Shown: positions 56,666-57,612 of the stretch, one piece after another
Numbering within the stretch: position 1 is the first letter of the stretch
How the letters are laid out: every line of letters starts with the position of its first letter
DNA from: Naegleria gruberi
Lineage: Eukaryota
Length of the DNA stretch: 64,000 nt
NCBI GenBank assembly: GCA_000004985.1
Contig: GG738886.1
Reading direction: 5' to 3' (one strand)
The notes under the pieces: model-generated
The model's database searches: none
What the model was told of the DNA's origin: nothing
Seen by the model: the letters and a program-made list of their open reading frames with translations, nothing else
Position numbers and translations under genes: made by a program

Positions 56666-56974
56666 AGCACATTTAATAACCACTTGATTATACCATAGAT
56701 AAAGAATCAAAAATGTCACTCTCAAAATATTTTTAATTTGATATAGAGGAAAGGTACGGTTTACAATTTTAAAACTTGTTTTCCATTTTGATAAATTAAA
56801 AAATATTGAAAAAAAATAGGGGAGAAACTGTGAACTCTTTCTCGATAGATATTGTATTTGGGGTTGTGATTTTTCTACTGTATGTAGATATTAATGTCTA
56901 GTATTAATGGTAAATTTTTTTAAAAGTTAGTCTGGAAGAACACGAAGAAAAAAGATGATGTTTGCGTCGACCGG

Positions 56975-56983
56975 GAATTGAAC
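56975..56983. repeat. Target-site duplication copy 1 (GAATTGAAC)
   Basis: Identical 9-mer at 57445..57453. Corresponds to tRNA-Gly positions G53-C61 (GTTCAATTC on the minus strand). Confidence 0.6.
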
Positions 56984-57444
56984 GGGTTATGGAATTACCT
57001 AATGTGGAAATTGAATTCAATTTTGAAATTGAATTAATACAATGTTTTTTAAATTATTATTATTTAAATGTATTTCACATTAATTTTGATAATGTAATAT
57101 TAAAGATATTGATGATTGGGTATAGGGGAACGGAATTTCCTAATTGGGAATGTCATCACACCAACAATAAATTAAATTTATTATTTATTCATTGATGTTC
57201 ACTAACACATTACATGATGAAACAATTCAAACATTTACTCAAACTTTAAACATTAACATTAACCATCGGGTAACGGATTTTAATACATGTACAGTATGTT
57301 TATAATTGGTCGACGCACAGAAATTTAAATAAAAAGAATTAACAATAATAAAAGCAAAATGCTCACAACATTGGAGAACGGGAAATGAAATTCCCAAATT
57401 AAATTGAGAAACAACACAATCACAATAATTCATACTATCAAAAT
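56984..57444. mobile_element. Non-coding, AT-rich 461-bp insertion in tRNA-Gly, flanked by a 9-bp target-site duplication (non-autonomous element, family unknown)
   Basis: Perfect 9-bp direct repeat GAATTGAAC at 56975..56983 and 57445..57453, exactly at the break in the tRNA. The insert has no ORF. It carries three copies of a roughly 30-bp motif (GGGTTATGGAATTACCTAATGTGGAA at 56984, GGGTATAGGGGAACGGAATTTCCTAATTGGGAA at 57118, GGAGAACGGGAAATGAAATTCCCAAATT at 57374). Confidence 0.45.
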
Positions 57445-57453
57445 GAATTGAAC
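57445..57453. repeat. Target-site duplication copy 2 (GAATTGAAC)
   Basis: Identical 9-mer at 56975..56983. Confidence 0.6.
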
Positions 57454-57612
57454 CCGGGTCACGGCGATGGCAACGCCGTATTCTACCACTAAACCATCGA
57501 CGCTTCTTGAATCATTATTCAGGCTGTTTATTTTATTTAAGGTAACCCTGTTAGTAATCTCCCGCCATTTTTAGTTGTTTTCATCTACAGTCATGAAATT
57601 TAATTTAAAAAA

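What the first reader, a model, noticed from the sequence alone, without database searches (positions are those of the whole stretch)
56963..57503. tRNA-Gly(GCC) gene split inside its T-loop by an insertion with a perfect 9-bp target-site duplication
Seen: the two halves of a canonical 71-nt tRNA-Gly(GCC) lie 461 bp apart on the minus strand, and each half ends in GTTCAATTC (GAATTGAAC on plus). This is the classic signature of a transposon insertion that duplicated T-loop positions 53-61. Established: nuclear tRNA introns sit at position 37/38, never in the T-loop, so this cannot be a normal tRNA intron. The interrupted gene is almost certainly non-functional, yet an intact tRNA-Gln lies only about 300 bp away.
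Basis: seen in the sequence. Interest (0 to 1): 0.7.

Follow-up and report, generated by a model that had tools for sequence, protein, structure and literature searches.

The report
Insertion-broken tRNA-Gly gene in Naegleria
A glycine tRNA gene of the amoeba Naegleria gruberi has been cut in two by 461 bases of non-coding DNA that duplicated 9 bases of the gene on entry, leaving an ordinary dead tRNA gene whose inserted element could not be identified.

Summary
The window is Naegleria gruberi nuclear DNA. On the minus strand, tRNA-Gly(GCC) nt 1-61 lie at 57503-57445 and nt 53-73 at 56983-56963. They are separated by 461 bp (56984-57444), and an exact 9-bp direct repeat, GTTCAATTC (G53, the 7-nt T-loop, C61), flanks the insert.

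Joined in silico, the halves give a perfect 71-nt cloverleaf. That sequence is 100% identical to an intact tRNA-Gly(GCC) gene on a metagenome contig from a Naegleria-clade organism, which scores 66.9 bits on the Rfam tRNA model. The interrupted gene scores 21.2 bits, below the threshold of 29.

The reading "insertion with target-site duplication, gene dead" is well supported. The reading "transposon" is only inferred:
- The insert is 25% GC and non-coding.
- It has no terminal inverted or direct repeats and no poly-A tail.
- It has no second copy in the window or in any searchable collection. The N. gruberi genome itself could not be searched.

An intron reading is rejected. No intron family matched, no bulge-helix-bulge fold forms, and Pol III stop signals start 2 nt into the insert.

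Weak target-like motifs inside the insert leave open a small chance of a T-loop-homing element. Overall this is an ordinary tRNA pseudogene of modest interest.

The parts
57445..57503 (-). 5' piece of tRNA-Gly(GCC), nt 1-61: acceptor 5' strand, D arm (A box), anticodon arm with GCC, variable loop, T-stem 5' strand and T-loop. It ends in GTTCAATTC.
   Evidence: It is 100% identical to L047 207-265.
57445..57453 (.). Right-hand copy of the 9-bp direct repeat (GAATTGAAC on +, GTTCAATTC on the tRNA strand; tRNA positions G53-C61).
56984..57444 (.). 461-bp insert. It is 25.4% GC and non-coding, with no terminal inverted or direct repeats and no other copy in the window.
56975..56983 (.). Left-hand copy of the 9-bp direct repeat.
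56963..56983 (-). 3' piece of tRNA-Gly(GCC), nt 53-73: duplicated G53 to C61, then the rest of the T-stem 3' strand, the acceptor 3' strand and discriminator A73.
   Evidence: It is 100% identical to L047 257-277.
56948..56953 (-). T6 run 9 nt downstream of A73. This is the original Pol III terminator of the gene.
   Evidence: Read. The function is inferred from general Pol III biology.
57440..57443 (-). First T4 run on the tRNA-sense strand, starting 2 nt into the insert. Further runs are T4, T4 and T5 at insert positions 86, 92 and 110. They would end Pol III transcripts before the 3' piece.
   Evidence: The effect is inferred.
56984..57003 (-). 20-nt motif ATTAGGTAATTCCATAACCC at the very end of the insert, abutting the repeat.
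57125..57144 (-). Second copy of the 20-nt motif (ATTAGGAAATTCCGTTCCCC, 16/20 identical), in the same orientation and 141 bp from the first.
   Evidence: Segment alignment S3 against S4 gave z = 3.6.
57268..57278 (-). Shorter related motif ATCCGTTACCC.
57373..57389 (-). Related motif TCCCGTTCTCC at 57373-57383. It overlaps TTCATTTCCCGTTC at 57376-57389, which matches tRNA T-loop/T-stem/acceptor TTCAATTCCCGGTC at 12 of 14 positions.
57308..57317 (+). GGTCGACGCA, an exact 10-mer equal to tRNA nt 64-73 but on the opposite strand (an inverted copy of the tRNA 3' end inside the insert).
   Evidence: A match this strong occurs in about 2% of control 461-bp chunks of the window.
56594..56666 (-). Intact neighbouring tRNA-Gln(UUG), given as context.
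   Evidence: 68.8 bits.

Best explanation
A once-functional Naegleria gruberi tRNA-Gly(GCC) gene was hit by one insertion event. The DNA was cut with a 9-nt stagger centred on the T-loop (G53 to C61, the core of the Pol III B box). 461 bp of AT-rich non-coding DNA was joined in, and gap repair duplicated the 9 nt.

The most likely agent is a mobile-element enzyme, either a transposase that makes 9-bp duplications (Mutator-like elements do, and some of those lack terminal inverted repeats) or a retroelement endonuclease plus reverse transcriptase. The insert would then be a short non-autonomous or truncated element.

The result is a tRNA pseudogene. The 5' piece keeps its A box and most of its B box, so it may still recruit Pol III. 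Transcripts should stop at the T-runs that begin 2 nt into the insert. They would lack the 3' T-stem and acceptor strands and could not be aminoacylated.

Shown: the anatomy, the exact duplication, the identity of the joined halves to a real intact tRNA gene, and the lack of intron features. Inferred: that the agent was a mobile element, that the event is recent, and the transcriptional consequences.
For: - Exact coordinates and a 9-bp repeat whose outside flanks differ.
- The joined halves form a perfect cloverleaf.
- The joined halves are 71/71 identical to the intact tRNA-Gly(GCC) of contig L047, which scores 66.9 bits on RF00005. The interrupted gene scores 21.2 bits.
- L047 belongs to a Naegleria-clade organism. 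Its BTB-domain ORF hits N. fowleri and N. lovaniensis best among named proteins.
- All 80 tRNA-derived bases, including both repeat copies, carry no substitution. The original T6 terminator is still 9 nt past A73. Both points fit a young event in a real gene.
- 73 of 78 matches to the same tRNA-Gly pattern in metagenome contigs are uninterrupted, and none has an insertion at this site. The interruption is therefore derived and unusual.
- The insert has four T-runs of 4 or more on the tRNA-sense strand, the first at insert nt 2-5.
- The insert has the same GC content (25%) as the local intergenic DNA (26-28%) and no coding signal.
Against: No hallmark of any transposon class was found:
- no terminal inverted repeats (p = 0.05 to 0.4) and no terminal direct repeats;
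- no A-rich tail at either end;
- no transposase or reverse-transcriptase remnant;
- no second copy in the 64-kb window, in the 99 fetched loci, or in the metagenome and viral collections by exact terminal 23-mers.

The key test, copy number in the N. gruberi genome, could not be run.
Confidence: 0.6

Rival explanations
1. The inserted DNA is not a mobile element. It is filler DNA captured or copied during repair of a break in the tRNA gene, for example end joining with captured DNA or a replication template switch that returned 9 nt upstream. The 9-bp repeat is then a by-product of repair.
For: The insert has no terminal repeats, tail, coding remnant or second copy. Its base composition is the same as nearby intergenic DNA. 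tRNA genes are known replication-fork barriers and fragile sites (general knowledge, not tested here).
Against: A clean 9-bp duplication with no deletion or extra bases at either junction is what staggered enzymatic cuts give. It is less usual for break repair. No donor sequence exists in the 64-kb window. Microhomology at the return junction is at most 1 nt when read.
Confidence: 0.2
2. The insert is a non-autonomous member of a target-specific element family that homes to the T-loop/B box of tRNA-Gly (or of tRNAs generally). It would work like the Dada DNA transposons, recognising its target through a sequence motif that it also carries itself.
For: - The cut is exactly symmetric about the T-loop (G53 to C61), flanked by the palindromic T-stem.
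- Like Dada elements, the insert has no terminal inverted repeats (PMC3706591).
- It carries 3-4 same-strand copies of a motif, one of them terminal.
- One copy resembles the target T-arm at 12 of 14 positions.
- It holds an exact 10-mer of the tRNA 3' end in inverted orientation.
- Both target-like matches together were seen in 0 of 408 control chunks.
Against: There is only one insertion, so specificity cannot be shown. The motifs were defined after seeing them, and each resemblance alone is weak (a score of 18 or more in 14-19% of controls and a score of 20 or more in 2%). Dada duplications are 6-7 bp, and the reported sites are in the A box or anticodon region, not the T-loop. No interrupted copy appeared among 78 related tRNA-Gly matches.
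Confidence: 0.1
3. The 461 nt is a genuine but unusual intron (an ectopic tRNA intron, or a self-splicing intron), or the gene is a split tRNA gene, and a working tRNA-Gly is still made.
For: Both halves are perfectly conserved. Ectopic nuclear tRNA introns exist in the red alga C. merolae (PMC3728597). Naegleria is known for group I introns in rDNA (general knowledge).
Against: - No group I or group II intron or other RNA family matched, even at E up to 10.
- In the predicted fold of the full precursor, the junctions do not form two 3-nt bulges around a 4-bp helix. Forcing the T-stem costs 4.7 kcal/mol.
- Four Pol III terminator-like T-runs lie on the sense strand, the first 2 nt into the insert.
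- A 9-nt exon duplication is a DNA-insertion scar, not an intron feature.
- 25% GC is far from structured introns.
Confidence: 0.03
4. The structure is an assembly artefact in the source genome.
For: No independent assembly or reads could be examined (the locus is not on record elsewhere).
Against: A mis-join would not create an exact 9-bp duplication at the two edges of a unique 461-bp segment placed precisely inside a 71-nt gene whose two parts stay in order and orientation.
Confidence: 0.03

Closest known systems
Dada superfamily of DNA transposons (Kojima and Jurka 2013, PMC3706591)
   Same: These elements insert inside tRNA and snRNA genes. They lack terminal inverted repeats and make a direct duplication of gene sequence. 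They also carry short subterminal motifs that recur in the target gene.
   Different: Dada duplications are 6-7 bp, not 9. The reported tRNA sites are the A box or the anticodon region, not the T-loop. Dada subterminal motifs are inverted and equidistant from the ends, whereas here the motifs are direct and irregularly placed. No Dada transposase, no multiple copies and no Naegleria Dada family were seen here.
Mutator-like elements (MULEs), including those without long terminal inverted repeats
   Same: They make 9-bp target-site duplications. Short non-autonomous derivatives are common, and some families lack recognisable terminal inverted repeats (from my own knowledge of the Arabidopsis non-TIR MULEs).
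   Different: No terminal similarity at all, no transposase remnant and no family members were found. The assignment rests on the duplication length alone.
5'-truncated non-LTR retrotransposon or SINE insertions
   Same: They have variable-length duplications (9 bp is within range), no inverted repeats, and short non-coding copies.
   Different: There is no A-rich or simple-repeat 3' tail at either end, no tRNA-like Pol III head in the insert, and no reverse-transcriptase remnant.
Ectopic nuclear tRNA introns of Cyanidioschyzon merolae and archaeal bulge-helix-bulge introns
   Same: They interrupt a tRNA gene outside position 37/38.
   Different: From my own knowledge, those introns are short, fold into a bulge-helix-bulge motif and are not flanked by duplicated exon sequence. 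This insert is 461 nt and AT-rich, carries terminator runs and forms no such motif.
tRNA-gene-associated retroelements (Dictyostelium TRE/DGLT-A, yeast Ty1/Ty3)
   Same: They are mobile DNA drawn to Pol III genes.
   Different: Those elements land at set distances upstream or downstream and spare the gene (general knowledge). This insertion is inside the B box and destroys the gene.

Membership tests
tRNA-Gly(GCC) gene (the interrupted host gene) | The joined sequence folds as a cloverleaf with anticodon GCC and passes a tRNA covariance model. | tested here: met
   ARAGORN draws a perfect cloverleaf. The identical 71 nt in L047 score 66.9 bits against a threshold of 29.
tRNA-Gly(GCC) gene (the interrupted host gene) | The gene as it stands passes the covariance model. 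| tested here: not met
   It scores 21.2 bits, below 29.
Transposable-element insertion (generic) | Direct duplication of target sequence at both junctions, with an intact 'empty' version of the target known. | tested here: met
   The repeat is an exact 9 bp. An uninterrupted identical tRNA gene exists in L047. That copy is a paralogous or orthologous gene copy, not the same locus.
Transposable-element insertion (generic) | Multiple dispersed copies of the inserted sequence in the genome. | not testable with these tools
   No copy was found in the window, the fetched loci, or the metagenome and viral collections by exact 23-mers. The N. gruberi assembly is not searchable here.
Cut-and-paste DNA transposon / MITE (including Mutator-like) | Terminal inverted repeats. 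| tested here: not met
   Alignment of the ends against shuffled controls gave p = 0.21 (30 nt), 0.05 (60 nt) and 0.42 (100 nt). The 60-nt hit is not terminal on one side.
Cut-and-paste DNA transposon / MITE (including Mutator-like) | Duplication length typical of the superfamily (9-11 bp for Mutator). | tested here: met
   The duplication is 9 bp.
Dada superfamily | Insertion inside a multicopy small-RNA gene, without terminal inverted repeats. | tested here: met
   The criteria come from PMC3706591.
Dada superfamily | 6-7 bp target-site duplication. | tested here: not met
   The duplication is exactly 9 bp, with non-matching bases on both sides.
Dada superfamily | [quoted passage not shown] | tested here: inconclusive
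   Target-like motifs exist inside the insert. They are direct repeats, they are not equidistant from the ends, and they are statistically weak.
Dada superfamily | Dada DDE transposase in autonomous relatives, and repeated insertions at the same site. | not testable with these tools
   The genome is not available. The insert has no coding capacity.
Non-LTR retroposon / SINE | A 3' A-rich or simple-repeat tail next to the duplication. For SINEs, also an internal Pol III promoter head. | tested here: not met
   The ends read ...CTATCAAAAT on + and ...CCATAACCC on -. There is no tRNA-like match inside the insert at E up to 10.
Solo LTR | TG...CA termini and a 4-6 bp duplication. | tested here: not met
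   No register within the 9-bp repeat gives TG...CA ends with a matching 4-6 bp duplication (read). The duplication is 9 bp.
Bulge-helix-bulge tRNA intron | The junctions lie in two 3-nt bulges separated by a 4-bp helix, and the precursor can be transcribed by Pol III. | tested here: not met
   The minimum-energy and constrained folds show no such motif. T4 and T5 runs lie in the sense strand from insert nt 2.
Group I / group II self-splicing intron | A match to the intron covariance models. | tested here: not met
   There was no such hit at E up to 10 over 56400-57700.

The most novel reading that the evidence does not exclude
The 461-bp insert is a non-autonomous copy of an undescribed target-specific mobile element of Heterolobosea. 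It would home to the T-loop/B box of tRNA genes, cutting with a 9-bp stagger symmetric about the loop. It would find its site through a T-arm-like motif (GAMCGGGAAWT) that it also carries in 3-4 copies. It would work like the Dada transposons but be distinct from them in site and duplication length.
Probability: 0.1. Interest if true: 0.6.

Novelty: new member of a known kind. Interest (0 to 1): 0.3.

Why it matters
As it stands, this is a tidy example of a tRNA gene killed by an insertion in a protist whose mobile elements are poorly catalogued. It is useful for annotation: ARAGORN miscalls it as intact and Rfam misses it.

It would matter more if the insert proves to be one of many copies sitting at the same T-loop position. 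From what I read here, strictly target-specific DNA transposons are documented mainly for the Dada superfamily, and none is reported from Heterolobosea. An element that targets the B box itself, rather than landing beside Pol III genes, would be a new targeting solution and a possible tool for site-directed integration.

Tried and rejected
1. Orthologous empty site. I fetched the N. fowleri and related loci around the neighbouring DnaJ gene (L001-L004). They carry no tRNA-Gly or tRNA-Gln there, so there is no orthologous empty site.
2. Reaching the N. gruberi genome. The window's DnaJ protein and its database twin P0001 are 'not on record' for contig look-up. No close N. gruberi relative appears in the protein collection.
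3. Other copies of the insert.
   - blastn against the window found only AT-rich noise, and the same against all fetched loci.
   - Exact terminal or motif 23-mers found nothing in metagenome contigs or viral contigs.
   - A degenerate 19-mer in bacterial and archaeal genomes gave 24 hits against roughly 70 expected by chance, all unrelated bacteria.
4. Viral contigs were also scanned for the tRNA pattern, with 0 hits.
5. Coding potential. The 77-aa and 64-aa ORFs have no Pfam hits. Open-frame lengths are not unusual for this composition (p = 0.24 and 0.03).
6. Tandem structure. Tandem Repeats Finder found only tiny AT repeats. The apparent ~142-bp spacing of motifs is not backed by segment similarity beyond the motif itself.
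7. The idea of two decayed tandem tRNA genes was rejected. The insert ends show no tRNA similarity while the flanking pieces are perfect.
8. Literature. Searches for Naegleria tRNA-targeting elements or T-loop insertions found nothing relevant. The N. gruberi genome paper is not held.
9. The bacterial promoter and terminator scan was uninformative.

Full report
**Source organism.** The window is nuclear DNA of the amoeboflagellate Naegleria gruberi. The DnaJ ORF at 58777-59418 is 100% identical over its full length to an NCBI 'predicted protein [Naegleria gruberi]', and the next hits are N. fowleri (67%) and Willaertia magna (47%). GC content is 31-36% throughout and ORFs are dense.

**The observation.** It is correct to the base. 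On the minus strand:
- tRNA-Gly(GCC) starts at 57503 and runs uninterrupted for 59 nt to 57445, ending GTTCAATTC.
- 461 bp of unrelated DNA follow (57444 down to 56984).
- Then comes GTTCAATTC again (56983-56975), followed by CCGGTCGACGCA down to 56963.

The repeat is exactly 9 bp, because the bases immediately outside the two copies differ on both sides. It corresponds to G53, the seven T-loop nucleotides and C61, so it is symmetric about the T-loop. GTTCAATTC is not a common word here: it occurs 4 times in 64 kb against about 2 expected.

**The host gene.**
- Removing the insert and one repeat copy gives a 71-nt sequence that ARAGORN draws as a flawless cloverleaf.
- ARAGORN on the raw window reports an 'intact' tRNA-Gly at 57433-57504 only by using insert sequence as a false 3' end.
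- Rfam's tRNA model rejects the interrupted gene at 21.2 bits against a threshold of 29.
- A T6 run sits 9 nt beyond A73, as expected for the original Pol III terminator.
- An intact tRNA-Gln(UUG) lies 296 bp further on.

**An uninterrupted copy.**
- A metagenome scan with GTTGCCAT-N8-CCCGGGTTCAATTC, which matches intact and interrupted genes alike, returned 71 contigs with 78 matches.
- Seventy-three matches continue directly with CCGG and the acceptor strand. The other five are one point variant and four copies of a different tRNA-like sequence.
- None has an insertion after the T-loop.
- One contig, L047, carries at 207-277 a tRNA-Gly(GCC) identical at all 71 positions to the joined halves, plus 6 identical bases of 5' flank. 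Rfam scores it 66.9 bits, which therefore also stands as the score of the in-silico join.
- L047 is a different locus, with tRNA-Ile upstream and a BTB-domain gene downstream. It comes from a Naegleria-clade organism, since its best named protein hits are N. fowleri and N. lovaniensis at 43%.
- The N. fowleri region orthologous to the window has neither tRNA, so a true orthologous empty site was not available.

**The insert.**
- It is 25.4% GC, like the adjacent intergenic DNA at 26-28%.
- It has no significant terminal inverted or terminal direct repeats.
- It has no A-rich tail at either end.
- It has no Pfam-recognisable ORF, and its open frames are no longer than expected for the composition.
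- It has no tandem organisation.
- It matches no Rfam family, including group I and II introns, at E up to 10.
- No second copy was found in the window, in any fetched locus, or by exact terminal 23-mers in the metagenome and viral collections.
- The N. gruberi assembly itself cannot be searched with these tools. The decisive copy-number test therefore remains open.

**Internal oddities of the insert.**
- A 20-nt motif (ATTAGGWAATTCCRTWMCCC on the tRNA strand) sits at the very end of the insert, abutting the repeat. It recurs 141 bp further in.
- Shorter relatives (TYCCGTTMYCC) occur twice more on the same strand. These are the only such matches in 64 kb, but the pattern was defined after the fact.
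- One of them is part of TTCATTTCCCGTTC, which matches the tRNA's TTCAATTCCCGGTC at 12 of 14 positions.
- The insert also contains GGTCGACGCA, the last ten nucleotides of the tRNA, in inverted orientation.
- Against 408 control chunks of the window, the 10-mer-level match occurs in 2% and the weaker match in 14%. Both together occur in none.
- This is suggestive of target-like sequence inside the insert, but it is not proof.

**Mechanism.** An exact, clean 9-bp duplication with nothing lost at either junction is the signature of a 9-nt staggered double cut that was filled in after foreign DNA was joined. Mobile-element enzymes make such cuts.
- Mutator-like transposases give 9-bp duplications, and some of their families lack terminal inverted repeats (my own knowledge).
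- Retroelement endonucleases give duplications of variable length.
- I therefore favour a mobile-element insertion (about 0.6) over repair-mediated capture of filler DNA (about 0.2).
- The insert's class cannot be named.

**Consequence for the gene.** It is a dead gene (inference). The 5' piece keeps the A box and a B box altered only at its last base, so Pol III may still load. However, TTTT begins 2 nt into the insert, and T4, T4 and T5 runs follow within 115 nt. The product would therefore lack the 3' T-stem and acceptor strands. The absence of any substitution in the 80 tRNA-derived bases suggests the event is recent.

**Why not an intron or split gene.**
- The predicted fold of the hypothetical 541-nt precursor shows no bulge-helix-bulge at the junctions, and forcing the T-stem costs energy.
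- The terminator runs argue against a full-length transcript.
- No self-splicing intron model matches.
- Duplicated exon sequence is a DNA scar, not an intron feature.

**Comparison with known systems.** The closest functional analogue is the Dada superfamily. These DNA transposons insert inside tRNA and snRNA genes, lack terminal inverted repeats, and carry subterminal motifs that recur in the target (PMC3706591). Membership fails on a tested defining feature: the duplication is 6-7 bp there against 9 bp here. The site also differs (A box or anticodon region against the T-loop), and the motif arrangement differs. Mutator-like elements match only in duplication length. Non-LTR, SINE and solo-LTR readings fail on their terminal features.

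**Verdict.** This is an ordinary kind of event, namely an insertion-disrupted tRNA pseudogene. A roughly 10% chance remains that it marks an undescribed T-loop-homing element, which one genome-wide BLAST would settle.

Noticed in passing
window 57433-57504 (-): ARAGORN reports this as a normal 72-nt tRNA-Gly(GCC) by pairing insert sequence (ATTTTGATAGTA) as a false T-stem and acceptor 3' strand. Rfam gives it 21.2 bits, below threshold. This is an annotation trap: automated pipelines would either count it as a working gene or miss the split gene entirely.
   Followed up: yes
L047 47-119 and 207-277: This freshwater metagenome contig (Ga0247722_10058881) comes from an unsampled Naegleria-clade organism. 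It carries tRNA-Ile(AAU) and tRNA-Gly(GCC) 87 bp apart. The tRNA-Gly is 71/71 identical to the N. gruberi sequence and shares the 6-nt 5' flank CAAGAA. Its BTB-domain gene is only 43% identical to N. fowleri and N. lovaniensis and found no N. gruberi hit.
   Followed up: partly
L001 8001-10201; L002; L004 (compared with window 56594-59418): Gene order DnaJ then VPS9-domain gene is conserved between N. gruberi, N. fowleri and an uncultured relative. The tRNA-Gly/tRNA-Gln pair upstream of DnaJ is absent in the others. N. fowleri instead has a tRNA-Phe(GAA) downstream of DnaJ. tRNA gene positions therefore turn over quickly in this genus.
   Followed up: partly
L012 1049-1078, L015, L050, L068: Four related metagenome contigs carry an identical tRNA-Gly-like sequence with a GCC loop and GGGTTCAATTC. 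Its T-stem 3' strand reads TAGG instead of CCGG, and ARAGORN does not call it a tRNA. It sits among normal tRNA-Arg, tRNA-Pro and tRNA-Glu genes. It may be a degenerate or unusual tRNA.
   Followed up: partly
window 57001-57035: There is a local 17-nt near-duplication (AATGTGGAAATTGAATT / AATTTTGAAATTGAATT, 18 bp apart) just inside the left end of the insert. It places two more copies of the T-loop heptamer AATTGAA within 60 bp of the duplicated target. This may be chance in AT-rich DNA.
   Followed up: partly
window 57613-57939 (+): A 108-aa open frame starts 110 bp from the tRNA 5' end on the opposite strand and ends at a GT-rich stretch that looks like an intron donor. It has no Pfam family. 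The tRNA gene and this gene are divergently arranged, so the insertion lies on the far side of the tRNA from that gene's start.
   Followed up: no
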